A DNA stretch of 64,000 nucleotides, from positions 22,846 to 86,845 of the forward strand of contig CAZHHM010000001.1 of assembly GCA_964532225.1 (NCBI GenBank), in the 5' to 3' direction. Shown one piece after another: positions 26,477 to 49,477 of this stretch; positions within the stretch are counted from its first letter, which is position 1; every line of letters starts with the position of its first letter. This stretch comes from an uncultured bacterium (GTDB lineage: Bacteria; Margulisbacteria; WOR-1; JAKLHX01). The notes under the pieces are model-generated. The model was not told where the DNA came from. It did no database searches and saw only the letters and a list, made by a program, of their open reading frames with translations. A program made the position numbers and the translations under genes.

Positions 26477-29400
26477 CTAGTTGATAGGTATACCGAAGTT
26501 CAGGCTGGCTTTAAACCCACCCATTCTTTGATCGTATGGCAGAAAGTCCCAATTGAGTTTCTTGTCGGTGAATGATTCACCATTATTCCACATCCATGAA
26601 GCATCTAAATATACGTTGAATCTGCTGGCGCCATATCCTAATCTTCCGCCTACTTCAGTATAAATATACATGTTTCCGAAGTCGAGCAACCATGGTTTAC
26701 CCATATTGCCGTATTCCGCCCGGTATAGAACAGTATTTTGTGAATCGATCCTTCCTGACAGGAAAGAAGCACTCCCGAATAGTGAAGCGTAAGTCGATCT
26801 TGGCAGCCAAGATGACGGGACTCTCCATTCAGCAGAGAATGTGCCTCCGAAAGCTCCTTGAGCTTTGTCCGGCATCTCATCAGGGTTATCACCCAACAGG
26901 AACATAGATGAACCGAGCCTTTGATAGTTCTTGTAGAACAAGCTCAACGCCAGGTTGAAATTGGAGTCCTCATACTTCAGGGAGCCGGAAATGTCAGTAG
27001 ATATGTCCGTCTGAAGATTCCTTCTTAAGGCCTTTTGTGTGCCGCCGGCAGAGATGACCCTTTCGTCTTCTCCTTTATTAAGGTCCTTGAAATATATTGT
27101 CTTTTTAACTAGCCCCTGTTCGTCCCTTTCATATACAGTACGAATATAATACAATGGAAACGGATCTTCATTACTATTTTTCCCGATCACCGTGACCTTG
27201 GTTTCCCAGCTATTTGCCGTTATCGAGATCTCAGGCGCATTTGTATCTTCTATATACAAATCATCCGTGGCCTCGATCGGGGTCATTTGTGACAGATCTA
27301 TCGATGACAAGAGCGAAGCCTCCGGGAATGTGTCAAGAGGTGTTTCTACGGAGAAAGCATCGCTTGAATAGATGACACCACCGGAAGGGCCTAGTTTAGC
27401 GTAGGTTGCTTTACGCATGGTCTTCAGATTGATCTGCGTTGTTATGTCTTCATTTACTTCCGGTGGATGAGCGATAGGAATATCAACGGTTTTAATATTT
27501 GTTGTTATTGTAGCACCCAGATGCCAAATAAGATTTTCTCCTGTCCCGGTGGATTTCTTTTCGGGAATAAAATAAAACTTATTCCAGAATGTTTGAGGGT
27601 CTTCATTAGGTCTGTCCCATTTTGGAACCGAAACATCCTGAGTGAAGTACACAGGATATTGAGAAGGTGCCTGCCCCAAAATATTCCTCACCCATATTCC
27701 ATCATCCTTAGGTGGTATATAATCTTCCTGGTGAGTTACCACCCAATAGTAATACGGAATGCTGTTGTCGTGTCTGCCGACCGAGACCTTGCCTTTAAGC
27801 GTCCCGGAGAAGTAATCATTAAATCTTTGAGCGCCAGTAAAACCGAGCGACAGATTATAGGGCTGTGAATGTAACAGCGTTTCACCGTACATCGCTTTCG
27901 CTTGGGCGCCGAACTCCGCGTTGACGCTCATGTTCTTGCTGAACCTGTATTGTCCGTTGATCTGCAGCCGTTCCTCATCATTTTTCGGATTGTAGCCGTC
28001 CACTGTTCTTGAATATCCGCCGCCGACAGTGAACTTGCCGAAATCAAAGGTCGAACCAAAACCTTCATGCTTAACGGTTATCGGGTTGCCGGGTATCTGT
28101 ATGTTCATTCTGTCCAATGAATATGAAGGCTGCCAGTTAAGGTCCACGCCGCCGACAGAAAGATCTATATTTCCTGCCAAGTTCAGTTTAAGCGAATTTG
28201 TTGTCGGAGAACCTGCCGTTTTCCAAATATCGGAATTGCTTGCGGTCTGTACGCCGGCAGACAAGTAGGGCAGCGACAGCTTTGCGTCAACAAGGTTCCC
28301 GCTCGGCAGGTAAGAGATCCTTAAAGGCGTTGTCGCCCTTATCTGGCTGTCAAGCCACCAGTTGGCACCGTACTTGCGCAGCGACATATAGTCCTTGTAC
28401 GCTTCGAACGTCCTGCCGCTAGCCAGATTGAAGAGGCCCGAATCATACGCCCTCATGAAGAAGATGTACGGATCGGCCAGTTCCTCGGCCCTGGTCAGCT
28501 CTTTGTATCTAGCGTCAAGCGCGGCAGCCTCTTTTCTCGCGCGCAGGAGGTTGCCTTCCTCGAAGGCTTTCTTCGCCCTGTATTCTATCTCCGCAAGCTT
28601 GCGCAGATTGTCCTTCAGCTTTCCTCTCGTTTCCGGATCGCTGAGAATAGAGGCGTATATGGCCTCGGCCTTTTCGAAATTATCGTCCTCGGCATAATCC
28701 CTTGCCTGGTCGATATCAAGCTCGAAGCTGTCGAACGGTATGTTGTGGCGCCTGAACATATCAAGGAGAAGCTTGACATTGTCCCTTATCTGTATGGCCT
28801 TGCTCTTTTTCCTGTCGATGGACTGTATCCTTGCCGCGGAATTGAGCAGCTTGACCACGGTGATATAGTTGGTGTTGCCTATACCTGCCAGCGAAAGATA
28901 GGAATAGATGTCCTTTCTTTCGGAAGAGAATTCATCCGACAGCTTAAGGTCGGCAGGGGAGGACAGAGAAAAGAACTTCCTGGTGACCCTGCCGCTGCCG
29001 TCAAGATATCCGTTATCCTTAAGGTCAAGAGAAAGTTTTATCGCCGAGGCCGCGGGGTCATTGCTGAACAGCGGCTCGAACGTTTCCGGGCCTACCTTGG
29101 CCCCGACAGAGAAGAGCTTGTCCATTTCTGACTGGGCCTTTTCGATGTCCCCGGAATTGATCAGCGTTACGATGACCTTGGCTTTTATGTCATTGACCTT
29201 CTGATGGTCTTCAGGCATGCAGAGAAGCGCTGACTCGAACAGCCTGCCTGCCTGAGCGTTGCTTGATTCCGGGGAATCAATATCCTCAAGTCCCGCCACG
29301 GTCACGTTGTGGTCGTAAAAGTACGGGGCGAATATCAGGTAGATATCACCGAGAGCCTCATAGGCAAGCGCCCTGGTCGCGTCCTTTATCGAAGCGGCAG

Positions 29401-32400
29401 AGAGCACCCTGTTCAGGTTGGAGATGTATGTTGAAAGAGCGTCAAAATCGGAAGATACCTGCTCTTCCTTTATTATCCTTTTTTGCACATAGGACGTGTA
29501 TGACTTTGCCTGGTCGATAAGAATGCCGGCCCACTGGTCATAGCCGATCTTTGAGAAGATCTCCGCCTGACCGTAGGTGGCGACGGCCTCAAAATTTGTC
29601 GCTACGGTTTCAAAGCCCTCGGTTATCCTGGCCTTTAATGACAAAGCTTCCGCCATATCATAGTTGAGCAGATAACCTGCGCCGGTCACCGGGCCGATGT
29701 CGCTGAGTATGGAGTTGAACTCCTCGAACCTTCTGTCCAGGTTGACCAGCTCCAGGGAGCTGAAGTATCTTGTCCTGCAGTCGTGCAGGCCGGCCCTGGA
29801 GATCACCTCGCCGTAAGCCCTGGGATAAGCCCTGTCGGTAAGGAGCTTTGTTATCCCGCCTTCCGGCAGGGCGTTAAGATTGAACATGTTCTTGGTAATG
29901 GTGTCGAATTCGGTCCTGGCCATGCCGAGATACTGTTTTGACAGCTCGAGCTGCCTGTCAGCGTCCGCCCTTCTGGAAAATATGTTCTTGTCCATCAGCC
30001 AGATGTCAGCCGAGACCTGTGAGGACAGCAGGAAAGAATCGCTCCTCATCAGCTGCATGAACAGGTACTGCTTCTTGTCGTCATTCCTGAGATAGTGGCC
30101 GACAGATCCGAGCTTCGCGTCGAGCAAAGCGCCAAAAGCGTTGTTCGCTTTAAGGGTCTCGTTCAGGACCGTCCTTCTCCTGGTCTCGGAGGTCTCCTGG
30201 GAAGCGGCCACTGATCCCATCTTCAACAGATGCATGCAGATCTCGGCCGTCGCGGTCGCTTCGGCCGGTATGGTGGTTGCCGCCATGTTGCCCGCGACCT
30301 TTGATACCGTAGCCGTAAGGTCATTCTCCCTGCCGCCGAAGAACCTGGTGTAATGGTCGGCAGCGCTGGCATAAAGCTTTGTGTATCCCGGGTCGTTGGC
30401 CTCGGCCGCGCTGTACATGTCCATCTCAAAAGCCTGCCCGATGCCCTTATACGCCTTTATGACGAACAGTCTTTCATTGTCATCCGAGAGCGATGACACA
30501 GAATTCAGCTGGTCAACTATCCTGCCGGGATCGATCCCCGAAGGCATCGCTTCTTTCAGCGGGGAGACGTCGGACACTATGCCGATCTCAGTTGTTATGT
30601 CCGCATCGCGGCCTTTTAGCAGGGACGCGAATATTGACCTGCCCAGACCGTAAAGAGAAGGTTCTTTGCTGCGCGTAAGGGCTTCGGCCAGGCCGAACGC
30701 GGCATATTTCTTAATGGTCCTGTTATGAGGATCGAAGGTCTCGGGAAGCGGGCCGGATATGACCTCGATAAATGACCTGGCCGCAAGGAGTATCTCCCTG
30801 TCGTCGATCTCTTCCCTTGAAACGTAGTAGTTGCCTTTGCCAAGCACGGCCTGGAAATACATGTCGCTGTCGGTCCGCTTAATGTACGGGGTCTTTTCGA
30901 TGAGCTCCACAAAATCGAAAGCCCCCGCAAGCGACTCCACCGGCTGGCCGATGACATTATTAAGCATGGTCCTGTCGCTGTCGGAAAGAGAGACCTTCTC
31001 GCCTAAAAGCTTCATGTATATCTTTCCGGCGAGCTCGGACGTCGCCGAGTTCCTGGAAAGGATGTTGGCCAGTATCAGACATGATTTTTTCTTAAGATAA
31101 AGTTTTGTCTTGTCATTTTCGGGCACATTGTCAAGGAGCCTGACCGCCTCTTTAAGTGTAGAAAGAGCGTCCGCCGCTTTTTGTTTTGAGGCGTCATAGT
31201 CGTTATAGTTGAAGCTTGAAGAGGCCAGCGCCAGCTGTGCTTCGGATACGGACAGCATTGTCTCTGCTATGGACGCTTCAATATAGGACCTGCGCGGCAG
31301 CCGGAGGCTTTCAAACAGGCTTCTTGCTTTTCTCAGGTCTGCGATGGCGCTGTTCAGGTCTTCCGTGTCATATGACGCGAGGTTCTTTTCAAGGACTATC
31401 TGTCCTTTAAGCTTGTAAACTGCCGCGACATCAGGTATGACGAATTTCTTGTCTTTGACCTTCTGCGGGAGCCTGCCGAAATAGCTCTCCGATTCCTCTG
31501 CCAGGGCCAGGTCGTGGTTCCTTAAAATGAGCTTGAGCACAAGGATGTCGTCGCTTGTGCCGAGGCCGGTCCCGAAGAAGCTCTCGCCGAACGGGATGCT
31601 GTTCCCAAGCCTTTGATAGAACTTATCGGTCACTTTTCCGAAGCTGTCGATAAACCCTTCCCTGACCAGTCCGGCCCATACTGCCTTCTTGTCATCCCCG
31701 AGATCGTCAAGGTCTTTCAGCGTGATATTCACCTTTCCCGCAAGCAGACCGCCGAAAAAGGAGAGCGAGCCGTTCTCGAGCGATGCCTTAAGTTCGTACG
31801 GCTTGCACAAGGAGACAAGATTGGCAAGCCATATCCTGGCCCTTGCTTCCACAAGGGTCTTTTTGTTCACTAGAGATTCAGGGGCCGTGATTATGACCTG
31901 AGAAGAATATTCAAGCGACATGCTGATGTGCTTTAACGCGTCCCCAAGTATCTCCGGCTTCCTCTGGCTTTCCGGGGTAGGGTTGGAGTCTATCCATTCC
32001 TTAGATTCGAATATGCCCATGTTCAGATAAACATCCGAAAGGACCTGCATCATCTTTTGGTTTATACGGGCATATTCGGCCGCTATCAGGGAAGTAAGGC
32101 CTTTTGCCTTGTCGATGTTGTCCTTTGAGGCAAGCAGGGCCTTGAGATACACTTCGCTTGGGACGGGAGGCTTCTTGCCCTCGGCTTCAGCCTCTCTCGC
32201 GATCATATAGAGCTGAGCGTTTGACTGCATCATCTCGAACTCAATGCTCATATAGAGGTTCGCGAGCGATTTCTGTGCCTTCTGGTCGGCGGAAAGCGAA
32301 GCAAATATCTCTGACAGTGTCTGGAAAGATATCTGCCTGTTACCCGCCGCGACCGCGAGCCTGGACATCTTCCCGTTCTTGCCGATATCAGAGCCGTACG

Positions 32401-34219: not shown

Positions 34220-34229
34220 ATATCTCTTT

Positions 34230-36899
34230 CTATTCCATGGAGTTCAGCATGGATAATACCCCGACCCTGACCTCCATATTATCGGACTCGTTGGACAGGA
34301 CGATCACTTCCCTTATCCCCTTGATTATGTTCTTAGCCTTTATCCTGCTGCTTTCGTTGGATGACTCGTTCAGCAGAAGTCTGGCGTACTCCATGCCTAT
34401 CTGATAATAGGCAAGTCTTTCTTCCCATTTGCCGCCGCTGTAGAAATCCGCCTCGGAGTCCACTTTTATCTGTATTATAGTATCGTAAGCCTTCTCCATC
34501 GATTTCATTGCTTCGCGGACCGCGCTGTTCCTGTTTTCCGTGGAATTCAAAAGGCTTGCGGTCGCGAGCTTTAGTTGTGCCTCAAGCTGATATGATTGTG
34601 CCTGGAACAGCCAGAAGTTCTTTAGCTTGAACTGCTCGCTGGAAAGACCCTGTGTCGTGTACATAACTCCCTTGGCGAAATCTTTGAGGTTCAATATACC
34701 TTGAATATCTTTTATGAGAGCAGCGACCTTTTCTCTTGTGCTGTCTATGCTCTGCTTGGCAAAGACCGGATAAGAGTTCTTTATGCCATCACTTGACCAT
34801 GAATATATCTCGATGAGCTGGAGCATATGCCTGATATACAGCACTTCGGCCCTGATGGCGTTAAAGTTATCCCTGTACTTTGGCATCCAACCTGATTCCT
34901 TGAGACCGAACCAGCTGTCAAGCTTATCATCGACAACGGAATTGGAATACCGGTTGAAACCGGACGTGCAGTTCTTCAGGAGCTGATCCATATAGTCCAT
35001 GTCCGACCTTCTGAGCATGAAGCTCCTGTCATAGGACGGGACGCTCGCGATCATGACTATTATCTTCATTATCTGCAGGCTGTACCTTACCTTATAGCCA
35101 TACTCTTTTTCCTGAAGCTGTGAGAAAGCCCTCTCGAGCATGCCTTTTGCTTTCCATAAAAGCGCCACGGCATTTTTTGTGTCCTTTTTCTGGATGAACT
35201 CATTGATCTGGGCCATCATTACGTCTGAAGCAAGAATGACGGTCTCGTCGTAAGATTCCGGCCTTGCCCCGGATGTTGCCTTTAAGTAACCATTTTTCCT
35301 GCCGACATCCTCGAGAGGGCCGAGAGCTTCTTCGGCTGTCTTTATCGCTTTTTCGTACTGTCTGTCCTGAAAATATGCGCCGACAAGCTGATACTGGCCT
35401 TTTAATTTCGGGTCCCTGAAGCGGAAGCTCATCCTCCATCCGCCAAGATGTTCTATGTCTTTGGCGATATCCTCTTTTTCTTTGAACTTCATCCTAACTA
35501 TCACAACTCGGTCAAGAATGGTGCAGGTCTTGTGTTTCTCATCTCCGGTGAGAGTTGCAAGGCTTTTGTCGGCAACAAATTCTGCCCTTTTTCCGGAAAA
35601 ATGGGACAACAATCTGCCTTTTTTGTCAATATACTCGGAACGGATCAAGGCCTCCCAGATAGCAGCGCCTCTTTTTTCACCAAAGGTCCTGATGAACAGG
35701 CCTTTATTGACATATCCGATGTTCTTTTTCATCCACTCAAGGTCCAGGTCGACCTCGGGCGCTTCTTTGGGAACAATGACCGACCTTGTGCCTGAAAGCA
35801 CGGTCTTGATGTCCGTGCTGATGGCAGGGGAGACCGCAGCGAAGGCCTCTTTCAGGGCCTTCAGTGAAGAGGCGTCCATACCGTAGTCCTTATACGCTCC
35901 GCCTTCCTGTTTTGACAGGTTGAAAATAAAGAAACCGCTCAAGCCTTGTTCCCTGAAGTAACTGACGCTTTCCTTAAGGAACCTGGGCTTGAAGCCCGCA
36001 GGATCGTTCTTCTCCCTGTCGCATGAGAACTCGCCGATATAGATAGGTTTGTTGAACTGCCTTACCCTTGATATTGTAGGACCGAACAGCTCCGATGGGG
36101 ATCTGTACCGGCCCCCGTAGTCCTTAGTGTTGTAACCGTCAACCGAAACAAAATCCACCACATCGGCGCCCGGATAAAGCGAGGCTTCATTGCCGAAGTC
36201 GATGTTCACGTTATAGCCGAAAGTGATATTGCACCCGCCGGCCTCTCTCATGACGCGGACAACATGCCTGAAAGCCTTTTTAAACACTTCCGGGTCGTTC
36301 TTAGCTTCGATCGCCCATGGATAGGTCATTCCCATATTAGCCTCGTGGAACAGGATGACCTCGACAGGAACGCCTGCCTTTGCTGCTCCGACAGCAAAGT
36401 TCCTGATAAGGTGATCGAACTTTCCTTCGGCGATATCCTTCAAAGTAAAGGACCTGTCGTTTTCTCCGCCAAAGCTCCACGGCTCAAGCTTGATGCACAG
36501 CACTCCGCCCCTTGAGGCCATCATTTTTGCCTTTTCTGCAGGGAAGTCCAGGCCCAGAGAGAAAGGCTGGAACAGCAGCAGCTTATCAAGCTTCTGGCCT
36601 GTTGCCGATTCGTACTTGCCAATCGCGGCAATGAACTGATCGGTGCTTAGCTGAATGTCGCCAAGGAAAGCTCCGTTATAAAGTCCGTTGCTCACCACCT
36701 TGCGGCATTCGACCTGGATCTTTTGGGACTCCTGGGCAGGTTTTATCTGGCCGTTGCCCTTGCCGTTCTCGTCATTCTGGTCGATAAGCTGATCGGTCTC
36801 GTAGGGTCTCCGGCCGAGATCGTCAGCGATCTGCCTTTCCTTAAGGTCCGATAAGGACAGGGAATTTACTGCTCCCGCATTCACTTTATTTATCTGCAT
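34230..36899 (-). CDS. GH26-like (clan GH-A) glycoside hydrolase domain protein with a long uncharacterised alpha-helical C-terminal region (889 aa); no signal peptide
   Basis: ILFHEANMGMTYPW (cf. GH26 HEMN acid/base motif) and PIYIGEFSC (nucleophile-like xIGE). The N-terminal DENGKGNGQIK loop resembles the N-termini of the 924- and 331-aa proteins. Confidence 0.55.
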   Translation of the reverse strand: MQINKVNAGAVNSLSLSDLKERQIADDLGRRPYETDQLIDQNDENGKGNGQIKPAQESQKIQVECRKVVSNGLYNGAFLGDIQLSTDQFIAAIGKYESATGQKLDKLLLFQPFSLGLDFPAEKAKMMASRGGVLCIKLEPWSFGGENDRSFTLKDIAEGKFDHLIRNFAVGAAKAGVPVEVILFHEANMGMTYPWAIEAKNDPEVFKKAFRHVVRVMREAGGCNITFGYNVNIDFGNEASLYPGADVVDFVSVDGYNTKDYGGRYRSPSELFGPTISRVRQFNKPIYIGEFSCDREKNDPAGFKPRFLKESVSYFREQGLSGFFIFNLSKQEGGAYKDYGMDASSLKALKEAFAAVSPAISTDIKTVLSGTRSVIVPKEAPEVDLDLEWMKKNIGYVNKGLFIRTFGEKRGAAIWEALIRSEYIDKKGRLLSHFSGKRAEFVADKSLATLTGDEKHKTCTILDRVVIVRMKFKEKEDIAKDIEHLGGWRMSFRFRDPKLKGQYQLVGAYFQDRQYEKAIKTAEEALGPLEDVGRKNGYLKATSGARPESYDETVILASDVMMAQINEFIQKKDTKNAVALLWKAKGMLERAFSQLQEKEYGYKVRYSLQIMKIIVMIASVPSYDRSFMLRRSDMDYMDQLLKNCTSGFNRYSNSVVDDKLDSWFGLKESGWMPKYRDNFNAIRAEVLYIRHMLQLIEIYSWSSDGIKNSYPVFAKQSIDSTREKVAALIKDIQGILNLKDFAKGVMYTTQGLSSEQFKLKNFWLFQAQSYQLEAQLKLATASLLNSTENRNSAVREAMKSMEKAYDTIIQIKVDSEADFYSGGKWEERLAYYQIGMEYARLLLNESSNESSRIKAKNIIKGIREVIVLSNESDNMEVRVGVLSMLNSME

Positions 36900-36909
36900 A
36901 GCGCACCTC

Positions 36910-39900
36910 TTATTCGACCTTTATATTTAACGTTTTCATCAGGTTCGAGGCCGTTTCTATCACGATATGCTCTTGCGTTTCCTGCATCAGCTTCTTTATC
37001 GCCATCCTTGCGTTCGCGTCGTTAGGCGAAGCCTTCAGCGTTTCAATGCTCCTTATGGCTATGGTCATCTCAATTTGAGTATACAGCTCCACAAGAAGGT
37101 TCGCCTCATCCCTCCAGGCGTTCTGGAGGCTAATTGACGTGGCTCCCTTTGAATTTATAGCTCCAAGCTTATATAGGGTCGCCTTAAGCGAGTCCCTCAT
37201 TTGATAAAGCCGGTCATAGCCCAGCGTGTCCCTGCCGGCGGCGAGCTCTTCTTTAACGCTCGCATAGTTTTCAAAATCTGCGGTAAGCTGCTCATCCCTC
37301 ATTAACCCGAGGAGCAGCTCATAGACCTCTCTGGTGTGAGCTGCCAGCTCTTTCGGCAGAACGAACTTCTCAGGTATCGATGAAGGTGATAGCCAAGCAC
37401 CGTTCAGGAGCGTTTCGCGGATGTTGTATTCGTGGTTCGATACCATATTCTTGAACTCTTGGGTGACAGTGAAGGCCGTCTTTTTTTCATCCAAAGGAGA
37501 AATAAGCCTTAACGTCTCCAGGCTGGACGTGATGCCTTCTACAACCGAAGAGATACCGTCTTTCAAGGCCTTTGAAGGAGCTTTTGACGGATCTTGAGCC
37601 GCGGATGATTCCACCGACCGATTGCGAACGCTTTTGTCCTCGGTAAGTTTCCTGACGGACGGCAGCTCTTCAATGAACCTGTTCTCGATCGTGCCAAGTT
37701 TCGTCGATGACCTTTGTTTGGCAACTGGCAGACCCTCTCTCTTTTGCAGTGCTTTTGTTTTCATGAGCACAGCAGACTGGTAGCCGGAGAACAGAAGGTT
37801 TATTCCCATTCCTAATCCAGCCAAAGTGCCAAGCTGGTCAAAACCTCCCAGGAGCAGCGATGCCATCGATACCCCTGAAGTTGCCAGGGTGAAGCCTAGG
37901 AGCTTGTTTACCCATTGTTTGTACTCCCTGGGAACAAGAGAGCTGGCCCCGGCGCTCGTCAGCATGAAAGTTCCCATCTGGTTCTGCTCGACATACTGCC
38001 AGTTGGCAGACTTGAAATAACCTGCAAGGAAACCGATCTCCTTCGCGGGATTATCCCATAAGCCGGTCCCCAGCACACCGAAGCCGAGAGAGTTCAATTG
38101 AAGCTTGTAATTCATTGTGGCCGAAGCTGTCTTCGCGGCCCAGGTAGGGATGAACAAAGGTATATCCACAGGGAAAGACAAAATATTCCCCATAGAACCG
38201 TTGTAAACCGGCAGGGAACCAAGTTCTATCATCTTTGCCCAGGCCCATTTGTACCAGGTACGTCCGGCAGTTATCTCCCACATCGCCTCAAGGCTGGCGA
38301 AATAGAAGGGATCAAAGCTGGCCTTAGGGTTAAGGCCTTTAACAAGGTCTTTGGCGATCAGCTTGAACGGCTGCACGAACAGCGTTTCGCTGAATATGTA
38401 CCTTACGGCGTTCTGTACCTTGTACTTGTCAAAGGTCTTTTCTGCCGCCATTATGGCGACCATCTCTTTGATCACATGCATCTTCACTCCGAGCATCCAC
38501 GCTACCATTTCCATCTGGGTGTCCTCGGAAACGCCGACGCCCCAGAACTGACCACCGTAGTTCGACATCTTCTTGAAGTTGTCGCTGTTGGTCTCCATTA
38601 TGTCGGCGAACAGAGGATTGAACAGGAACTCCGCGGACATCATGTGCGTCCTTCCGCTCTGTATGCCTCTGAAGGCCCTGATAGATTTTGCCCTGTTCAA
38701 ACCGAAGTGCTCGCCGAATGCCTTTATCGTGCTGTACATGGCGTTCACCTGCAGGCCGTAGAAGTACGGGTCCCTGGCATATTCGCCCGATATCTCGCCT
38801 ACGTTGCCGAACCTTGTCTGCGGGCCGATAACGGATTTTATTATCCCTTCGATCGCCTGAGAGAACCCGCCTTTATTCTCTTTAAGTATCGCAAAAAGAT
38901 CTCCGATCTCTTCTTCGGTGAGGTCCATCCTGTTGTTCGGGTTGTCCTTGTTCCACGTCTCGATTATCTGCTTAAGCTGGACCACGTTGACCCATTTTAT
39001 CCTTTGGGTCTCTCCAAGGTTCTTTACAAGTCCGTTAGATTCCAGCATTTCCCATACATTGGGATGAGATGACAACAATACCTCTTTGTTGATCTTCTTT
39101 TCGTTGAGCTCCTTGTAGATCTCGCGCAATCTCTCGGGGGTGAGCTCGATCCTGCTGTTCCTGTTCTCTTCTTTTTTGTTCCATTCTTTGATCCAGGTCT
39201 CAAGAGACGCGACAGAAACTACTCTGGCTTTGTCCAGCTCCCAGTGATCGTTGGTTATCTCCGACAAGTTCTTTTCTACAAGATCGCGGGTGGTCTGGTC
39301 TATCCTTGAAAGGTCAATATTGTCCGCTCCCAGGTCAAGCGCCTCTTTATTCGGGAGAGATTTTGATACGGGGACCCATTTATTGCCGATCTTAACTGCA
39401 GATGTGAACAGCTGCGGAGAGACCTTTATTTTACCTTCCGGTAGCTCGGTCCCCTGCGGAAGCTTTATCTCATAGGTGTTCACCTTGTGCACAACAAGGC
39501 AAAGTCTGCCGTTGTGATAGGTATCTATTACAGGGTTATAAGTGTCGGTCGCATCGTCCCTTATGGAGGGGTCGCTCTGATATATGTCGCTAAGCCCTTT
39601 GACGCCCATGTCCTTGTTGTCAAGAAGTGACCTGCCGAAATTATCGGTAAATAATCCCTGTCCCAGTTCAAGCTTTGCCTCCTGTCCATCGGGGACGCCT
39701 TCCGGAGCGAACCTTATGGTGACGCTCTTATCGGGATTTACCCTTACCGAGCGTATCCATCCGAGGTCCGGTATGCTTTCTATTATTTTGGCCTCGGCCT
39801 CGTTCGAGATATTATAAACATAGGCCGATCTGTCATGCTCAAGCCCGTTCTGTTCGAGCCTTCTTTCAATTACAAGCAGCCGGTCGGGAGCAGACCCTCT

Positions 39901-42900
39901 TCTCATTTCAAGAGTGGCCGACACATGTTTTGACGCGTCCAGGGTGACCACAGGGGACAGCAATGTCCCTGTTATTCCCTTGCCGGGCGCCTGTCTAAAG
40001 TAATTGCCCAGATCGATAACGGGTCCTGCGGTGCTTGATCCGTCCTCTCCGAACACTGTTACAAGGCCAAGAGCGGAGCCTTTCCGGACCTCTTTTGCCT
40101 CAGTGCTTTTTTCCGGTCTGACGGGATAGAATATTCCGCCGTCAATGAACGCTTTTCCCGAGTTGTCCACTTCGGTTATCCTGTCGCCTTCTTTGATGCC
40201 TTCGAACCAGGCAGCAGGGATAGGGATGGAAACGCCCCTGGGCAGACATACGCCGTTAATGACTATTTCCTTGCCTTCATTCCTGGTCTCGATATTGTAA
40301 TAACCTCCGCCCACTTCGACATGAGACCTTTCGTTATTGTCGTTAAGCACCTCTTTGGACCTGCCGGTCTTGTTGAACAGCATGGGCCTGTCCCTGTCCT
40401 CACACCGCACAAAACCGAGCGTTCCGTCCTCATAACGTATCCTGTACCATGAAATATCGCCTTCTCTGTCAGGGTTTTGTTTGAAAGCATTGGCCTGCAG
40501 CGTTACTTTTCCGTCCTCTCTGGGCAGTCCGAGAGTCTCAAGATATCTCGGGAAAGCGCTTTCAGGGACCTCCATCTGATAGTTTCCGACGAGCTTAAGT
40601 ACAAGATCGCCTTTAAGATAGAACTTCATCTTTGTGGTAGCGTACAGGTTCTTCCAAAGAGGGCTGTCCTTCTCCGCTTCAGGCACGGCAATTTCCACGG
40701 ACCTTGAGCCGTCGCTGACCGTCATGACCGTCTTGCCTTCATTCCATTTGACCTCGAGCTCTACCTCTTTGTCCGAAAGATTGAAGAAATAAACTATCTT
40801 TTCCCTTATCTTTCCGTACTCCGGTATCCCGAAAGTATTTATAAGGGGATTGACGACCGAGCCGGAATCATTGCCTAAGCCCTTTCCAGAAATGAACTGG
40901 GTCTCCGAAAGCTCGGAATAGTTGAGGATGAGCCTGCGCCTGACCTCTCCTGTCTGCTTGTCGGTTTCGGTGATGACATCAACATCTCTCAGCCTTGCCC
41001 AGTCAACGAGACCGTTCCTCTGGGTCACTATTGCAGACCTGTCGACCTCATATGGGATCATCCTTTGAGCTCCGCCTTCGGGAGAATAGGCAAGCTCGAT
41101 ATTGCCGTTGAGCACATCGACCGAGCTTATCGCTTTTTCGGGATACGGGTTGTTGAAGGTGTAGCGCTTGCCCACAGGGAACCTGTAAACAAGAAGGAGC
41201 GCCTTGTTCTCGCGCTCCCTTTCTAGGAGCGCCTGCTGCTTGGAATAAGTAAAGACCTGTATGTCGTTCTTGTCCATCATGACCGCAGAATAGAAATCAG
41301 GGAAGCATATCGCAAGAGGAGAGGTGATATCGATATGTTCCATCAACGCTTTGTCTGAAGTTTCCGAGCCGGCGAAAGCGAACCTCCTGCCGATCTCATC
41401 TTTGGTTGCATGGGCTTTCTCTTTTGTCGCTTTTTCAAGTATGCCGTTGACCTCGGATTCAATTCTCCTTTGCTCGGCCTCATCTTTCGATATCTCGGCT
41501 CCCAGCCTGAAGGCGTCCTTTTTTGTGTAGAACTTTGATTCGACCAGGCCGTCCTTAGTTATCCAGCCGTTGCTTACGAGGGCATTCCAGACCTTGTCGG
41601 CGTTCTCCCCGAACATGGACCGGTCCACTTTTCCTCTTGTATAGAATCCCGCTATCTCGGGCTGCTTAAGCTGGTCCTTGTCGCTCACCCAGAAATAATC
41701 GCCTGCCGCGATCTTCGTTTCCCTGCCGTTGATCACTATCCTCTTTATGCCGGTGCTGCCTTTTTCAAATCCTGTCGTCTTTGACGGGTCGTTATCTGTT
41801 CTGGCGACATAGTCAGAAGTAGAAAGATAGGCTTCGTTCTCCTTTTGAAGGTCCTGCAGCACCCTTTCCGCCTTTATCCAGATATACTTGGAGGCCTCCA
41901 TGGTGCCGGGTTTTGCTCCATACCTGAACTCAGGGTTCTGTACCCTTGTCCATGTGCCGGTCACCCAGTCCACGGTAGGATAGTTCTTGTTCTCGACCTT
42001 CCAGAGCTTATATACCGTAAGCCCCCTGAAAAGGCCTATAGTGGCCACGTTCTCGACCTTCCTTACTTTCCAGTCATCGTGGTTCATTTCTTTTCTCGCG
42101 ATGAACGGATATGTGACGAAGTCAGGATCGAACCTCTTCATGAGGTTCTCATAATCGCGGTAAAAATCCGCTTCGGCTTGAGCGGTGTATGACCCTGAGA
42201 CCGCGAAAGAGCTCCGCGCCTTATCGCGCAGGGACCTGGCTAGAGACCTGTATTCGGACACTCTGGCATCCAGCTGCTCGAAGGCGGCGTTGAAGGCTTC
42301 TTCAGTATATTCCTCATACATCACAGCGAACAGCATCTGCACATACTCTCTCTGGCGGACGTCAGAGATCTCTTTTTTGGCCAGCTCCTCAACATTAATT
42401 TTGCTCTTTGGCCTTAGTTTTCCGGAAACCACATCAAAGAATATGGCAAGCTTTTCAGGCTTATTCAGCTCGGGAGCATTCGCAAGAACGGTCTCTTTGG
42501 AGAAAAGCTTCAGCTCCGGTTTTCCTTTGAATTTTCCATGTATGTCCTCTTGCAAAAATGCCTTAAGCTCCCCGCCCATATATGAGGCAAGCGATTCAAG
42601 GTTGGCGGCAAGGGCCTCAAATTTCTCTGATACTGACATATTTGCAAGGCCCTGTATCTCAAGCTTATTTGTGAGCGCTCTTTGTATATCGCTGATCCAT
42701 CTGAGGAACATCTTTTCTATTTTCACGTTCCCAAGGTCTGCCTGCGGTATCTTGTCAAGCATGTTTACAAAGCTTACATTGGGCTTGCCCATGAGAAGGG
42801 CAGTGAAGAGAGCTCCCTTGGTATGCTCCACGTTGCCTGTGTCCGGATTGATGAGCAGGACCTTTTTATCGTCTGAATATCGCTTGGTCTCCTGCCTGCC

Positions 42901-44484: not shown

Positions 44485-44611
44485 TGCCAGCCCCCTCTAT
44501 ATATATATCGATAAGAACCATCCGGAATCCCAGTCCCGGAAACCCCCGTTCCGTGACTTCTTATATATAACGGGTTTAACTATTAAAAACTTGCATAAGA
44601 TTTACAATTCC

Positions 44612-44644
44612 TTAATAGTCGAACCTTAACATCTCTTCGTTCAT
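44612..44644 (-). other. Possible 10-codon upstream ORF (MNEEMLRFDY) with a perfect SD GGAGGGAGG, in the 5' leader of the giant operon
   Basis: Minus-strand reading ggagggaggtATGAACGAAGAGATGTTAAGGTTCGACTATTAA, 128 nt upstream of the 2524-aa gene ATG. Confidence 0.2.
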
Positions 44645-44705
44645 ACCTCCCTCCGATTTCACGGAATATTAGGGTGTCCCGAAGATTTTTCAAGGCAAGC
44701 ACGAA

Positions 44706-45701
44706 CTATCTGTTACGAGGACCCCGTTTCCCCAGGCTTGAGCCTTCCAGCCCGTCAGCTATCACTATGGTCTGGTATGCCATAAAGGTCTTTCCGAAAG
44801 CCACGCAATAGTATGTCCCGGGCTCAGCCATCTTGCCGTTGTCGTATAGGCCGTCCCAGTATACGAACTGCTCTCCCACGGAGCGTGACACCGATTCTCC
44901 TATTGTCCTGACGATATTGCCTTCGGTATTGTTCGTCCTTAGTGCGTTATAGATCGACCGTTTTGCCGAGAGGGCCCAGTTGAACTTGAGGAAGTCCTTG
45001 GTCTCTTTGGTAAGGTCAGAGTATTCCACCAGCCTTGTAAACCCTTCTTTCGTTTCGATATCCGAGGTAGAAGAGCCGGTAAAGAGATCACCGAGCCGGT
45101 CTATCATTTCGGGGCATGAAAGAAGCAGCCTTTCTTTATCAAAAACAACGTTCCTGGCAAAGCTCACGGGGATGTTGATCTCCCTTGCATCATCGATAAG
45201 AGCGTATTTCGGGGTAACGTTCCCGTCCCTGTCGACATACCCGTTGTTCAGCATTGCCTTCCACATTTCTTCAACCTGCCCGGATACTCTTTCTTTCAGA
45301 CATCCGACATCAAGCGTCCATTTGTATATCCTGATGGTGATGGAGTCAGGCTTGATCAAATGGTAGGAGAGGACCTCGATCTCGTTCTTTGCCATTCCGC
45401 CGGGATCATCATCTTCTCCATCCATTTTCCAGCCTTTCGTGGTCCACACCGCCATTACCGGCTTCTTGATCTTAGTGTCCACGATGGAGCTCATCGTCTG
45501 GGACCTGTCGGCCAGCTCATAACCCGCGAGATACGTCTCCATTTCTTTCGCGAGCCTGACGGAGTATTTGGCACAGGCGGCTACCGCGGAGTCCCTTTCC
45601 TTTACCAGGTCCAGAACGCCGTTCCTGTTGCCGAAATGGTCTCCGTTCGTGAGGAACGTCCGGAATTCTTTGGGGGCCTCGGATATTTTTAATGATGACA
45701 T
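44706..45701 (-). CDS. Hypothetical protein (331 aa) with conserved N-terminal ISEAPK/GN-NG module and C-terminal FlgD-Ig/T9SS-CTD-like beta-sandwich
   Basis: N-terminus MSSLKISEAPKEF...FGNRNGVLD is paralogous to the 924-aa protein N-terminus. C-terminus VYWDGLYDNGKMAEPGTYYCVAF. Contains the MWKAMLNNGYVDRDGNVTPKY module. Confidence 0.55.
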   Translation of the reverse strand: MSSLKISEAPKEFRTFLTNGDHFGNRNGVLDLVKERDSAVAACAKYSVRLAKEMETYLAGYELADRSQTMSSIVDTKIKKPVMAVWTTKGWKMDGEDDDPGGMAKNEIEVLSYHLIKPDSITIRIYKWTLDVGCLKERVSGQVEEMWKAMLNNGYVDRDGNVTPKYALIDDAREINIPVSFARNVVFDKERLLLSCPEMIDRLGDLFTGSSTSDIETKEGFTRLVEYSDLTKETKDFLKFNWALSAKRSIYNALRTNNTEGNIVRTIGESVSRSVGEQFVYWDGLYDNGKMAEPGTYYCVAFGKTFMAYQTIVIADGLEGSSLGKRGPRNR

Positions 45702-45716
45702 GATATTCTCCTTTGC

Positions 45717-46703: not shown

Positions 46704-49477
46704 TATTTTTCTCCTCCGTATACGATCTCGAACGGTGCGAAGTTCTCTTTTTCGCTGTCATATTTGATGCCCAGGAAGTAAATGCCGGGCCGAACTGTCT
46801 TCCCTGAGAAATCCCTGCAATCCCAGAATACTTCGGCCAGAGGATTTATCTTAGAGAACCTGGTCCTTGCGGTGACATCCGAGACCTCGGTATCCATGGT
46901 GGGCATATATTTCAGGAGTTTGATCACAGCCCGTTTTCTGGCAAGGTCGAATTTTTCAAGAAGATATGCTTTGGCGTTCTCGCTCATGCCGTCGTTCCTG
47001 ATCAGCGCAGGGGCATCCTCCTTAAAGGTCATTGCCGCTGTCTCGGGGTCAACAAAGAACTTGAACAACCGGTCCTTTATCTCCGGTACCCGGGCGACGA
47101 TCCTGTCCCTTTCCACACTGCCCGTTGTAACATGTTCGGCGGAAAGCTCGCTCTCGGATTCTCTCAAAAGGAAGGCAAGTTTCTTTGTGGCATTACCGTC
47201 AGCGTCTATGTAGCCTTTATCCTTCAGTTCGCTCCAGAAAGCTTCAGTATCCTTGACCAGGCCCGTGAACTGCTCCTTTTTGTAGGCCATCCTGAATATC
47301 GAAGCTCTGTAGGTTACCAGTTCCGGGTCATTAGGCGTGGCAACAAGAAGCAGGCGTATGCGGTTCTTCTCTGCCGGACCTATCGTGAACGGATCGTTGT
47401 ATGGAGGTTCGAACACAATGTCTTCATGGTCCTTCATGTAATTTGCAGGGTTCACTTTTCCCGGAACGGACAGATCGTTAGTCTTTTCAGAATATCCAGG
47501 AGCGAAGGTCACGCCGCCGGAAATACTGCCGGTAAGACCGCTCAACAAGCTATGTGAAAGGTTAACGCCGGCGGTCCAGGGGGAAAAGCTGCCGGAAGTC
47601 GCGGTCCTGACCAGGTATTCTTTAACGGAGGGCTCTTTACCGGCGAGGTCATCTGGCAGCGAGACGCCCTGTTCTTTGTCCAGGTACTCCCAGATCGCCT
47701 CTCTCAGGAACACATGCGGTATGTTTAGCACGACCTCTTCGATGTTGTCCCTGAACACCAGATCGTCGCTTGAGACATCCTTGAACAAAAGGGCTTTATA
47801 TTCTTTGTTGTAGACCTCTTCCCCGAAACCGTATCTTTTGAGCATGTTCAGAAGGTCAGCTTTTCTTATAGAGACGCTTCCTGTATTCCTGATGTCCGTG
47901 AAGCGCTCGCCGGTCCCGCCTTTTCCGGTGAGATATCCGTTGCCGATAAGATGTTCCGCTATCTTTCTCCCTTCTCCGGGGAATTCATCGTCCATCTCAT
48001 CAATTACATCCTGCCTGTCGCGCTGAAAAGTGTAAGTAAAGATCAAGCCGAAGGAAAATGGTCGCCCTTTAAAATTGATGCCGAACGGGCTTTTAACCCC
48101 AAAATAGGCGCCGCCGGCAAAACGGCTTGCTTCCGTTCCGGTCTCGATCTTTCCGGTAAGTTCGGTCAAGCGGAGGGAGTTGATGTTCACTGATGATACG
48201 GCCCTGGCCATCACACGGCCGATAACAGGGAGCTTGAAAGGATAGCTGAATACCGTCGAGAGCTCGACGGGCGGGAGACGGTACCTGCCAAGACCCGGAG
48301 CAGCATCAAGCAACGCCCCCTTCATCTCGGGGGACGAGATCAGGGAGAAAATAAGAGCTAAAGGCACCACTGACGAAGAGACCTCTGTATCCATGCTCAA
48401 ACTCTCAACAATAAAGTTATTGAATGCTCTCTCAAGAGATACCCCGGCAGAGAACAGAGGCATTGAAAACGCTCCTTGAGGAAGAACGGCCCTGTAGCCG
48501 GTGTAAGGGCCTGCGAATATTCGGGTATTACCGGTAAAGAACAATCCGCCGGCTGACATTGACCCTTTAAATCTCAAACCTAGTATCGTGTCAGAGGATG
48601 TTTCGGCTTTGATCCCTGCAACGAACGATCGCCAGAGCGTGACGGATATCCCTGCGTCTTTTAATTCAATCGAAGGCGAAAAACCGCCGAAAAGCCCAAG
48701 TTTTCCGTTATTACCCAAACGGAAAGAGGCGAGGACCGAGAACAGCGAGTTTTCCGGCGCAAGGACCTTAAAGGCAGCATCATTTATCGCGGAGTTCAGC
48801 AGCGAGAAGCCGTCGTTCTTATCGGCAAGCATGTTCAATACATGGCCAGCGCAAGTGCCTATGGCCCTCTGGCGGGCTTCCGGGCTCATTTCTTTTTCCA
48901 TAAGTATATCGGTCAAACCCTCTATGGCGGAGGGGAACTTCTCTCCGAAGAACTTCGCCCCGTCCCTGTAATCCGTAAGAAGCAGAGACGCGTTCTCCTG
49001 CCTGCTGTTCTTTGGGTCCAAAGAGGCCGTGCCTTTCCAGCCCCGGAAAAAGTCGGCCACAGTCCTGCTGTCTATGCCCAGCGAGAAGATATTGTTACCG
49101 ATATAGTCTGCCAGTTGGGCGCCGTCGCCATCGCCAAAGCTGCCAACCGGGGTTTTAAGAAAATCCATTACATAGAAGTCCTTTGAAAAATGCTCGTATC
49201 CTAGCTTTGCCGATACACCGAAGGAGAACCTGCTTTCCCGGTATCTCATGTACTGATACTGTCTGTCGGGCCATCTTTCAAGTGTGTCGAAGCCTTTTGA
49301 GAATAGATACTGCCTCATGTCCTCCATTTGAGAAACGTCCCAGGCATTGCACTCGGCAACAGCCCTTCTTGCTTCTTCAAGCGAGTCTATCTGCCCGTTG
49401 CCGTTGCCGTGGTTGTCGGCGTACGAAAGATAAAGTTCCAGCTTTTTCGGGGCTTCAGAAATATTTATACTTCCCAT
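46703..49477 (-). CDS. Hypothetical protein (924 aa), larger paralog of the 331-aa protein: same N-terminal module, beta-rich middle, two NGYxDxDG modules, FlgD-Ig/CTD-like C-terminus
   Basis: N-terminus MGSINISEAPKKLELYLSYADNHGNGNGQID. C-terminus EVFWDCRDFSGKTVRPGIYFLGIKYD. Modules FWSELKDKGYIDADGNATKKLAF and IAEHLIGNGYLTGKGGTGERF. Confidence 0.6.
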   Translation of the reverse strand: MGSINISEAPKKLELYLSYADNHGNGNGQIDSLEEARRAVAECNAWDVSQMEDMRQYLFSKGFDTLERWPDRQYQYMRYRESRFSFGVSAKLGYEHFSKDFYVMDFLKTPVGSFGDGDGAQLADYIGNNIFSLGIDSRTVADFFRGWKGTASLDPKNSRQENASLLLTDYRDGAKFFGEKFPSAIEGLTDILMEKEMSPEARQRAIGTCAGHVLNMLADKNDGFSLLNSAINDAAFKVLAPENSLFSVLASFRLGNNGKLGLFGGFSPSIELKDAGISVTLWRSFVAGIKAETSSDTILGLRFKGSMSAGGLFFTGNTRIFAGPYTGYRAVLPQGAFSMPLFSAGVSLERAFNNFIVESLSMDTEVSSSVVPLALIFSLISSPEMKGALLDAAPGLGRYRLPPVELSTVFSYPFKLPVIGRVMARAVSSVNINSLRLTELTGKIETGTEASRFAGGAYFGVKSPFGINFKGRPFSFGLIFTYTFQRDRQDVIDEMDDEFPGEGRKIAEHLIGNGYLTGKGGTGERFTDIRNTGSVSIRKADLLNMLKRYGFGEEVYNKEYKALLFKDVSSDDLVFRDNIEEVVLNIPHVFLREAIWEYLDKEQGVSLPDDLAGKEPSVKEYLVRTATSGSFSPWTAGVNLSHSLLSGLTGSISGGVTFAPGYSEKTNDLSVPGKVNPANYMKDHEDIVFEPPYNDPFTIGPAEKNRIRLLLVATPNDPELVTYRASIFRMAYKKEQFTGLVKDTEAFWSELKDKGYIDADGNATKKLAFLLRESESELSAEHVTTGSVERDRIVARVPEIKDRLFKFFVDPETAAMTFKEDAPALIRNDGMSENAKAYLLEKFDLARKRAVIKLLKYMPTMDTEVSDVTARTRFSKINPLAEVFWDCRDFSGKTVRPGIYFLGIKYDSEKENFAPFEIVYGGEK

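What the first reader, a model, noticed from the sequence alone, without database searches (positions are those of the whole stretch)
26477..49477. Short conserved module (W..L...NGY[IVL]D.DG..T.K[FYL]) recurring in six different proteins of the operon
I found near-identical ~25-aa stretches in six otherwise dissimilar proteins:
- 331-aa protein: MWKAMLNNGYVDRDGNVTPKYAL;
- 924-aa protein: FWSELKDKGYIDADGNATKKLAF and IAEHLIGNGYLTGKGGTGERF;
- 2524-aa protein: VWNALVSNGWITKDGLVESKFY;
- 2580-aa protein: LDLKDNGYLDGSGRVTRKFF;
- 889-aa protein (degenerate): IWEALIRSEYIDKKGRLLSHF.

A shared peptide module across six co-operonic proteins argues for a common interaction, docking or assembly function. 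It also supports the view that the locus is one coherent system. I do not recognise it as a named domain.
Basis: seen in the sequence. Interest (0 to 1): 0.7.

Follow-up and report, generated by a model that had tools for sequence, protein, structure and literature searches.

The report
Uncatalogued 60-residue insertion domain
The short peptide motif shared by neighbouring proteins is real: it is the conserved core of a small, mostly helical protein domain absent from the two domain libraries I searched (Pfam-A, NCBIfam), which has been inserted repeatedly into many unrelated proteins of uncultivated bacteria and is unusually concentrated in this one cell-envelope operon.

Summary
All six quoted peptides exist, but they lie in five proteins, not six (p924 has two; LysM protein p328 has none). 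I found one more strong copy (p2580 aa 835-899) and one degenerate copy (p2524 aa ~1804-1870). The copies are not near-identical: the 25-aa core is 16-44% identical. They are far beyond chance. In leave-one-protein-out HMM tests, 0 of 2000 shuffles reached the real score. A profile built only from foreign sequences hits seven operon sites (E 6e-13 to 2e-6) and nothing else in the 64 kb.

Orthologues of p2524 lack the domain or carry it at a different site, so it is an insertion-prone accessory module. A docking or adaptor role is plausible but unproven.

The parts
28880..29074 (-). Domain copy p2580b (p2580 aa ~1716-1780). It is the most canonical copy in its second half, but the conserved Trp is replaced by Ser.
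   Evidence: Foreign-only HMM E 6e-13, 44.1 bits. It was the AF2 target, with pLDDT 90.7.
31523..31717 (-). Domain copy p2580a (p2580 aa ~835-899).
   Evidence: Regex scan. Seed-3 HMM E 0.0011. Foreign-only HMM E 2.4e-6.
35499..35696 (-). Domain copy in p889 (aa ~402-467). It lies at the junction between the GH26-like domain (aa 78-353) and the TPR-like helical domain (aa 474-843).
   Evidence: Foreign-only HMM E 6.7e-8. BLASTP to the L001 module gives 37.7% identity over 61 aa, E 3e-6. The orthologue P0022 has two copies at the same junction.
41428..41625 (-). Domain copy p2524a (p2524 aa ~954-1019). It is an insertion relative to four orthologues.
   Evidence: Foreign-only HMM E 2.3e-10. In the multiple alignment all of L001-L004 are gapped across this segment.
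38875..39075 (-). Possible degenerate copy p2524b (p2524 aa ~1804-1870). It lies inside a 149-aa lineage-specific insertion (aa 1724-1872) that contains a tandem duplication.
   Evidence: hhalign against the foreign profile aligns 53 columns with P 1e-4, on a pre-selected segment. It is not significant with hmmsearch. The insertion relative to the orthologues is shown.
45120..45311 (-). Domain copy in p331 (aa ~131-194), upstream of the FlgD_ig-like C-terminus.
   Evidence: Leave-one-out HMM 20.6 bits. Foreign-only HMM E 1.7e-9.
47093..47272 (-). Domain copy p924a (p924 aa ~736-795). It is paralogous to the p331 copy.
   Evidence: Leave-one-out HMM 19.5 bits. Foreign-only HMM E 2.5e-8. The p331/p924 paralogy is shown.
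47831..48001 (-). Probable divergent copy p924b (p924 aa ~493-549). The conserved Trp is replaced by Ala.
   Evidence: Foreign-only HMM E 0.013. hhalign P 3.5e-5 over 36 columns.
26477..49477 (-). The carrier operon, in gene order: p924, p328 (LysM, no module), p331, p2524 (multi-TM giant, which is two genes in L001-L004 and a single 2668-aa gene call in L012), p889 (GH26-like + TPR-like) and p2580 (helical region + weak porin-like C-terminus).
   Evidence: ORFs. Pfam. Synteny with L002-L004 and L012 and their polysaccharide-type neighbours.

Best explanation
What it is (well supported): the W..L...GY[IVL]D..G..T.KF motif is the conserved centre (helix, tight hairpin, short helix) of an autonomous, non-catalytic domain of about 61-66 residues. 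Its family consensus is 'VsKsdFsgl....aiWnaLi.nGYIDe.GniqpKFkgl.dafeL.Ls.eFe.eKd.IfdiLkk'. The domain belongs to a family that is in neither Pfam-A nor NCBIfam. The family is spread through uncultivated bacteria; sources name Omnitrophota, Margulisiibacteriota and Saganbacteria.

How it behaves (shown):
- It is insertion-prone. It forms tandem arrays with 67-84-aa spacing in TpsA exoproteins and in giant proteins.
- It sits as single copies at domain junctions or in loops of unrelated enzymes.
- In orthologues of p2524 it is absent or present at a different site.
- In this window it occurs 7-8 times in five of six proteins of an envelope-associated, polysaccharide-type operon.

How it most likely works (inferred, about 40% on its own): it is a binding or adaptor module that tethers its carriers to a common partner. 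The most economical partner is other copies of the same domain, through SAM-like self-association. That would co-localise the inner-membrane giant p2524, the GH26-TPR protein p889, the TPR/beta-barrel protein p2580 and the FlgD-Ig proteins p331 and p924. It is an accessory layer added to the machinery, not part of its conserved core.
For: Real and significant.

Domain extent: columns 15-75 of the family model are conserved, and the next repeat starts about 70 aa later. BLASTP alignments between window proteins extend 58-87 aa.

Fold: AF2 with a 56-row alignment gives pLDDT 90.7 and pTM 0.79. The five models score 88-90.7. Helices span residues 4-10, 15-28, 40-43 and 55-74, with a bridge at 32/38.

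Family size: 81 proteins at E<=1e-3 in 1.84e9 representatives, 76 of them foreign. Of these, 69 have at least one near-full copy, 128 near-full copies in all.

Not catalogued.

Architectures: TPS domain + 7 copies; TPR + module + POTRA + Omp85; GH26 + 2 copies + TPR; 3 copies + TM + Peptidase_S26. 7TM histidine kinases with copies near or after the HisKA match and before HATPase_c; DnaE; radical SAM; RseP next to its PDZ (positions).

Taxa.

Insertion behaviour: (p2524 versus L001-L004). One search shows P0018 modules C-terminal and p2580 modules N-terminal of the shared helical/barrel junction.

Link to this system: the syntenic operon L012 has modules in at least 2 proteins. The p889 orthologue P0022 keeps them.

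Non-catalytic: the best-conserved columns are nearly all hydrophobic, aromatic or Gly (V15, F20, W30, L33, G37, Y38, I39, G43, F49, I71, L75). Only D40, K48 and K68 are polar and moderately conserved.

Weak SAM/HhH-like fold similarity.
Against: No interaction was tested. AlphaFold-Multimer was not available.

Loci L002-L004 run the same p2524-pair and p889-like genes without the module.

In L007/L008, L009, L010 and L011 only one gene carries it, so no same-module partner is nearby.

Carriers are predicted on both sides of the membrane: the cytoplasmic histidine-kinase core and DnaE versus TpsA and RseP's PDZ-bearing region (the periplasmic location of that region and the cytoplasmic location of the kinase core are taken from the known topology of these families, not tested here). 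This argues against one single common partner.

Only 64 kb of the source genome is visible, so genome-wide enrichment is unknown.
Confidence: 0.6

Rival explanations
1. The domain binds a shared non-protein ligand, such as a glycan or exopolysaccharide, peptidoglycan, nucleic acid or a small molecule, rather than other proteins. In this operon it would anchor the components to the polymer the system makes or degrades.
Against: No single ligand fits both the cytoplasmic carriers (histidine-kinase core, DnaE, radical SAM) and the exported ones. There is no match to any known carbohydrate-, PG- or DNA-binding family. The conserved positions are mainly core-type hydrophobics.
Confidence: 0.2
2. 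The domain is a functionally neutral or 'selfish' insertion, or merely a rigid spacer. A compact, stable mini-domain spreads by duplication and insertion into tolerant sites of large proteins in these lineages. Its concentration in the operon would then reflect the size and tolerance of those proteins, not a shared function.
For: There are independent insertions at different sites of orthologues, and the domain is absent from others. It is inserted in loops of essential enzymes such as DnaE. Copy number varies between orthologues: p889 has 1 and P0022 has 2. The machinery exists without it (L002-L004).
Against: Strong protein-level conservation with saturated third codon positions (0.33 identity at position 3 versus 0.48 and 0.53 at positions 1 and 2) shows long-term purifying selection on the fold. 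Carrying it in 5 of 6 adjacent proteins, while about 45 other genes in the window have none, is hard to get by neutral spread. It recurs in the syntenic L012 system.
Confidence: 0.18
3. It is a diverged member of an already named domain: PG_binding_1, winged helix DUF2582, SAP/HeH/Rho_N, a choline-binding repeat, or a SAM domain.
Confidence: 0.05
4. It is a chance or compositional similarity, or a recent DNA-level repeat or gene conversion within the operon.
For: The motif is short. One reader-listed copy (p924b) and p2524b are weak. A 14-column look-alike occurs in the FtsK tail.
Against: 0 of 2000 shuffles reach the real scores. The foreign-only profile recovers exactly the operon sites. 76 foreign proteins match. 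Third-codon identity is about 0.33, so there is no DNA repeat.
Confidence: 0.01

Closest known systems
SAM (sterile alpha motif) domains / SCOP 'SAM domain-like' fold, including (HhH)2 domains
Dockerin/cohesin-type docking modules of multi-protein extracellular complexes
   Same: It also occurs in giant Omnitrophota proteins (10.1101/2023.11.21.568195).
   Different: The module has no duplicated Ca-binding EF-hand loop and no cognate cohesin-like partner was identified. It also occurs in cytoplasmic enzymes. Separately, the N-termini of p331, p924 and p889 carry a different motif, 'NGNGQID'-like, which looks more EF-hand/dockerin-like.
DUF2582 winged-helix domain (PF10771)
   Same: The 'G....VW..L...G' start resembles helix 1 of DUF2582. 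One instance scored E 0.0097-0.016.
In-frame mobile insertions such as Rickettsia palindromic elements or inteins
   Same: The module appears at different positions in orthologous proteins and inside conserved enzymes.
   Different: There is no DNA-level repeat signature and no splicing motifs. The module folds as a conserved protein domain under purifying selection. In P0040 a true intein is present separately, at aa 964-1044.

Membership tests
Any Pfam-A (2025) or NCBIfam (r20) family | Score at or above the curated threshold over the module | tested here: not met
   Window proteins. Foreign carriers: 20 for Pfam; 10, 4 of them among those 20, for NCBIfam. 56 isolated instances (Pfam): no family in more than 2 members, best E 0.0097.
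SAM domain | Sequence match to SAM_1/SAM_2/SAM_PNT profiles | tested here: not met
   No SAM family among the Pfam hits for 56 instances at E<=1.
SAM domain | Five-helix SAM fold with strong structural superposition | tested here: inconclusive
SAM domain | Homo- or hetero-oligomerisation through defined surfaces | not testable with these tools
   No multimer prediction or experiment was available.
Helix-hairpin-helix / (HhH)2 | hxxhxGhGxxxAxxhh hairpin motif and DNA-backbone binding | tested here: not met
PG_binding_1 (PF01471) | Profile match, and a three-helix PG-binding fold | tested here: not met
DUF2582 winged helix (PF10771) | Profile match at or above 24.2 bits, and a winged-helix topology | tested here: not met
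   15.8 bits in one instance only. The predicted secondary structure lacks a wing sheet.
Dockerin | Duplicated Ca-binding loop-helix segment and a cognate cohesin | tested here: not met
   No Dockerin Pfam hit. The consensus lacks a DxDxDG-type loop.
DNA-level in-frame repeat element (RPE-like) | Nucleotide-level similarity between copies, independent of codon position | tested here: not met
   Identity is 0.48, 0.53 and 0.33 at codon positions 1, 2 and 3.
The new family itself (working definition) | Near-full match (at least 45 of 66 columns and at least 15 bits) to the profile built from foreign instances | tested here: met
   Only p2580b meets the length and score criterion strictly (45 columns, 44.1 bits). 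The other five solid window copies score 22.9-35.8 bits but their local alignments cover only 28-41 of the 66 columns; p924b reaches 10.9 bits over 34 columns. Against the extended profile built from the window copies plus L001 (so partly circular) the alignments span 60-66 residues. 69 foreign proteins meet the criterion.

The most novel reading that the evidence does not exclude
The domain is a self-associating 'Velcro' module. Margulisiibacteriota, Saganbacteria and Omnitrophota lineages would have inserted it again and again into components of a previously undescribed envelope-spanning machine (multi-TM giant protein, glycoside hydrolase-TPR protein, TPR/beta-barrel giant) and into other enzymes. 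That would create a lineage-specific protein-networking system analogous to eukaryotic SAM-domain scaffolding.
Probability: 0.2. Interest if true: 0.7.

Novelty: new variant of a known kind. Interest (0 to 1): 0.5.

Why it matters
Neither Pfam-A nor NCBIfam recognises this ~60-residue domain, and source names were retrieved for only 20 of the 76 foreign carrier proteins: nine carry a name, eight of them 'hypothetical protein' and one 'BamA/TamA family outer membrane protein', and eleven carry none. Defining it gives a handle on unannotated sequence in giant proteins and envelope systems of uncultivated phyla (Omnitrophota, Margulisiibacteriota, Saganbacteria).

Orthologues show independent insertions at different sites. 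That makes it a clean natural example of domain insertion into existing proteins. If it mediates association, it would mark which proteins of these poorly understood organisms are wired together.

It also flags a conserved but uncharacterised gene set (p2524-like membrane giant + TPR protein + TPR/barrel giant) in polysaccharide-type loci.

Tried and rejected
Database searches that gave little or nothing:
- The search for homologous proteins with p924 and with p2524 returned only the query itself.
- The same tool with a module alignment returned nothing, not even the window's own proteins. I treat this as a limit of the word index, not as evidence of absence.
- The look-up of encoding contigs did not hold p331 or p924.

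Structure and family ideas rejected:
- The PG_binding_1, choline-binding-repeat and SAP look-alike ideas came from reading the motif. None was supported.

Other checks:
- Rfam found nothing in the window.
- The FtsK C-terminal look-alike (SDLASMGYLDGDG) covers only 13-14 columns and I judge it chance.
- Possible extra degenerate copies in p2580 (aa ~481-515 and 525-544) and in L001 (aa ~705) stay unproven.
- P0011, P0029 and P0034 from the big search are other repeats that share only the short motif.
- Two papers on Omnitrophota giant proteins do not describe this domain.
Full report
THE OBSERVATION

The region 26477-49477 holds six consecutive minus-strand ORFs:
- p924 (46703-49477)
- p328 (45717-46703)
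- p331 (44706-45701)
- p2524 (36910-44484)
- p889 (34230-36899)
- p2580 (26477-34219)

They lie in five proteins, not six: p924 holds two and the LysM protein p328 holds none. A loose pattern scan found two more. One is strong, in p2580 at aa ~845-870. One is weak, in p2524 at aa ~1811.

The copies are not near-identical. Over the ungapped 25-residue core, pairwise identity averages 30% (range 16-44%). p331 and p924 are paralogues over their N-terminal 68 and C-terminal ~212 residues. So 'otherwise dissimilar' does not hold for that pair.

IS IT MORE THAN CHANCE?

Yes, on three independent tests.
- An HMM built from three copies, run over the six-frame translation of the whole window, ranked the two p2580 copies next (E 0.0011 and 0.0047). 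The p889 copy followed, just above noise.
- Leave-one-protein-out profiles scored 20.6, 19.5, 13.5, 11.8 and 5.7 bits for p331, p924, p2580, p2524 and p889. No shuffle out of 2000 reached the real score for any protein.
- A profile built only from 162 instances found in other organisms recovered seven window sites with E from 6e-13 to 2e-6. p924b scored 0.013. Nothing else in the 64 kb scored below E=8.

BLASTP between the operon proteins aligns them essentially only at these sites, over 23-87 residues. The exceptions are the p331/p924 paralogy, the shared N-terminal motif of p889 and p924, a weak p328/p924 match and one 23-residue p2524/p2580 match at E about 1. That already suggested a unit longer than 25 aa.

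WHAT THE UNIT IS

A profile of seven window segments was searched with HMMER against 1.84 billion representative proteins. It returned 81 proteins at E<=1e-3; five are the window's own.

Of the 76 foreign proteins, 69 contain at least one near-full-length copy, 128 such copies in all. Three (P0011, P0029, P0034) are other repeats that share only the short motif.

The family alignment shows conservation over about 61 columns, from a 'V.K.dF' start to a 'K..I[YF].[IV]L' end. In tandem arrays the next unit starts about 70 residues later, with spacings of 67-84 aa.

AlphaFold2 on p2580 aa 1708-1788 with a 56-row alignment gave mean pLDDT 90.7 and pTM 0.79. All five models scored between 88 and 90.7. 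The model has helices at residues 4-10, 15-28, 40-43 and 55-74, and a two-residue bridge across the GYLDGSG turn. An earlier run with only the eight window copies was much weaker (pLDDT 73).

The best-conserved positions are hydrophobic, aromatic or glycine. That fits a structural core rather than a catalytic site.

IS IT KNOWN?

- Pfam-A and NCBIfam do not recognise it in the window proteins.
- They do not recognise it in foreign carriers either: 20 scanned against Pfam and 10, 4 of them among those 20, against NCBIfam.
- Among 56 isolated instances scanned against Pfam, no family matched more than two, all sub-threshold.
- A profile search of all PDB sequences found nothing below E 0.07.
- Foldseek found no match at E<=0.001.
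- Two papers on giant proteins of Omnitrophota analyse Pfam content and some predicted folds but do not describe this domain.

I therefore treat it as an uncatalogued family. At best its fold resembles the generic 'SAM domain-like' small helical bundle.

WHERE IT OCCURS

Source names exist for a minority of carriers. They say Candidatus Omnitrophota (P0012, P0019), Margulisbacteria/Margulisiibacteriota (P0035, P0015) and Saganbacteria (P0017, and locus L001). All are labelled 'hypothetical' except one 'BamA/TamA family' protein.

Architectures are very diverse:
- A TPS secretion domain followed by seven tandem copies (P0009). A close relative, P0010, has eight copies and lies directly downstream of a ShlB/POTRA TpsB gene.
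- TPR + module + POTRA + Omp85 (P0035).
- GH26 + two modules + TPR (P0022).
- Three modules + a TM segment + signal peptidase S26 (P0028).
- RseP-type M50 protease with copies beside its PDZ (P0061).
- 7TM histidine kinases with copies after or overlapping the end of the HisKA match and before HATPase_c (P0045, P0074).
- A DnaE polymerase with two inserted copies and a separate intein (P0040).
- A radical SAM enzyme (P0079).
- Probable type III restriction Res fragments (P0043, P0057, P0084).

Carriers are thus predicted on both sides of the cytoplasmic membrane.

IT BEHAVES AS AN INSERTION

Relatives of p2524 were found in one genome contig and three metagenome contigs (L001-L004). In all four the protein is split into two genes. 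In the syntenic locus L012, by contrast, the homologue is called as a single 2668-aa gene, so the fused form is not unique to the window.

In a multiple alignment, p2524 has a ~73-residue segment (aa ~950-1022) that is exactly the module, and all four relatives are gapped there. L001 carries its own ~65-residue module about 110 residues further on, where p2524 and L002-L004 are gapped. L002-L004 have no copy at all.

The second, degenerate site in p2524 lies within a 149-residue segment that is also absent from the relatives.

In p889 the module sits at the junction of a GH26-like domain and a TPR-like domain. These are separate genes in L003 and L004. The full-length orthologue P0022 has two copies at that junction.

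P0018 shares with p2580 a weak but specific match at the helical-to-barrel junction (E 7e-6 for the pair). It carries its three copies C-terminal of that point, whereas p2580 carries its copies N-terminal of it.

The copies are old. Third codon positions are about random (0.33 identity), while positions 1 and 2 are conserved (0.48 and 0.53). So this is protein-level conservation, not a DNA repeat or gene conversion.

THE HOST SYSTEM

Domain content of the window operon:
- p2524 is a multi-TM giant with no Pfam match.
- p889 is GH26-like plus TPR-like.
- p2580 is largely helical with a weak porin-like C-terminus (Porin_4, 20.1 bits, below threshold).
- p328 has LysM.
- p331 has a sub-threshold FlgD_ig-like match near its C-terminus (25.6 bits against a cut-off of 27). 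Pfam finds nothing in p924, whose C-terminal ~212 residues are paralogous to p331.
- A GH16 enzyme and a T9SS-tailed protein follow.

In relatives, the p2524-like genes are followed by a p889C-like TPR protein, fused to GH8 in L004. They are surrounded by glycosyltransferases, UDP-sugar enzymes, an epimerase and a TPR giant.

I infer an envelope-associated, polysaccharide-related machine. This is context-based and not proven.

L012 is syntenic: p2524-like of 2668 aa at 40% identity, then a TPR protein, then an ankyrin protein, then P0018. There the module is present in the TPR protein (E 1e-4) and three times in P0018.

By contrast, the loci around P0017, P0010, P0039 and P0015 have a single carrier gene.

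HOW IT MOST LIKELY WORKS

Shown:
- It is a folded, non-enzymatic, insertion-prone domain.
- It is under purifying selection.
- It is enriched in this operon.
- It was recruited independently to components of the same kind of system in at least two lineages.

Inferred: it is a binding or adaptor module. My preferred reading is self-association between copies, by analogy with SAM-like modules. That would tether the inner-membrane, soluble and outer-membrane components together. I put this at about 40%.

The main rivals are:
- Binding of a common non-protein ligand (about 20%).
- A neutral or selfish insertion, or a structural spacer (about 18%).
- A diverged known domain (about 5%).
- Chance (about 1%).

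Three facts argue that, whatever it binds, it is an accessory layer rather than the assembly principle of the machine. Orthologous systems lack it. Many carriers stand alone in their loci. Carriers occur in both the cytoplasm and the envelope.

VERDICT

There are five proteins, seven to nine copies and about 30% core identity, and the true unit is a ~60-residue domain.

It is an unnamed module enriched in the locus. The docking role is plausible but untested, and sharing the module does not by itself prove the locus is one system.

Novelty: this is a new, uncatalogued domain family of a familiar kind, a small promiscuous adaptor-like module, with an unusually clear record of independent insertions.

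Interest is moderate, 0.5.

Noticed in passing
window 49477-49280 (p924 aa 1-66), 45701-45504 (p331 aa 1-66), 36821-36705 (p889 aa 27-65), minus strand: A second shared element. The N-termini of p924 and p331 (ISEAPK...NGNGQID / NRNGVLD) and a segment of p889 (DENGKGNGQIK) resemble each other (p331/p924 E 1e-9; p889/p924 E 0.014). They look like an EF-hand/dockerin-type loop. None of these proteins has an obvious signal peptide.
   Followed up: partly
window 36910-44484 (p2524); L001-L004, L012: p2524 is one 2524-aa ORF. Its homologues in L001-L004 are two adjacent genes (~1000-1400 aa plus ~850-950 aa), but L012 again has a single gene call of 2668 aa. The family has no Pfam match. It is conserved next to a TPR protein in polysaccharide-type loci (GT2, GT5/UDPGP, epimerase, GH8, radical SAM).
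   Followed up: partly
window 38869-39315 (p2524 aa 1724-1872), minus strand: A 149-aa segment absent from all four relatives. It contains an internal tandem duplication (…WIKEWNKKEENRNSRIELTPERLREIYKELNEKK… / …IIETWNKDNPNNRMDLTEEEIGDLFAILKENK…). The second unit may be a degenerate copy of the domain.
   Followed up: partly
window ~44420-44040 (p2524 aa ~22-150), minus strand: An N-terminal internal repeat in p2524 (GLGFADRTRLLDNIRN… and FMGFADRTILFENIMNQ…). It is echoed in the L001 homologue (LGFANRSSLAAKIKNL). Its function is unknown.
   Followed up: no
window 21312-24269 (p985) and 25163-26398 (p411), minus strand: Directly downstream of the operon are a GH16 enzyme and a 985-aa protein. 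The latter reads, by eye, as three similar ~290-aa repeats and ends in a T9SS Por_Secre_tail sorting domain.
   Followed up: partly
P0040 (foreign DnaE, 1736 aa): A DNA polymerase III alpha subunit carries two copies of the domain: one inside the palm region (aa ~605-675) and one after the HhH domain (aa ~1295-1350). It also has a separate intein at aa 964-1044. This is a striking example of insertion into an essential enzyme.
   Followed up: partly
P0043, P0057, P0084 (foreign): Three short carriers look like fragments of type III restriction Res subunits. P0043 matches PRK15483 positions 614-803 (E 4.6e-6). P0057 contains a helicase motif VI-like 'EGWDNPNVFQICSL'. The domain follows the helicase core.
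   Followed up: partly
window 46040-46204 (p328 aa 167-221) vs 48656-48826 (p924 aa 218-274), minus strand: Weak similarity between the C-terminal part of the LysM protein p328 and the middle of p924 (35% over 57 aa, E 0.048). It may be a shared beta-rich or membrane-associated segment.
   Followed up: no
window 55090-55128 (+ strand, C-terminal tail of FtsK ORF 52840-55152): 'SDLASMGYLDGDG' mimics the hairpin of the motif, but only 13-14 columns align (E 0.7-9). I judge it a chance match.
   Followed up: yes
L012 1-18451 (Ga0247854_1000012, 403-kb contig): A syntenic operon in another organism: p2524-like 2668 aa, TPR 1085 aa (one module), ankyrin-repeat protein 1341 aa, then P0018 2816 aa (three modules, a distant p2580 homologue). 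The upstream part could not be fetched.
   Followed up: partly
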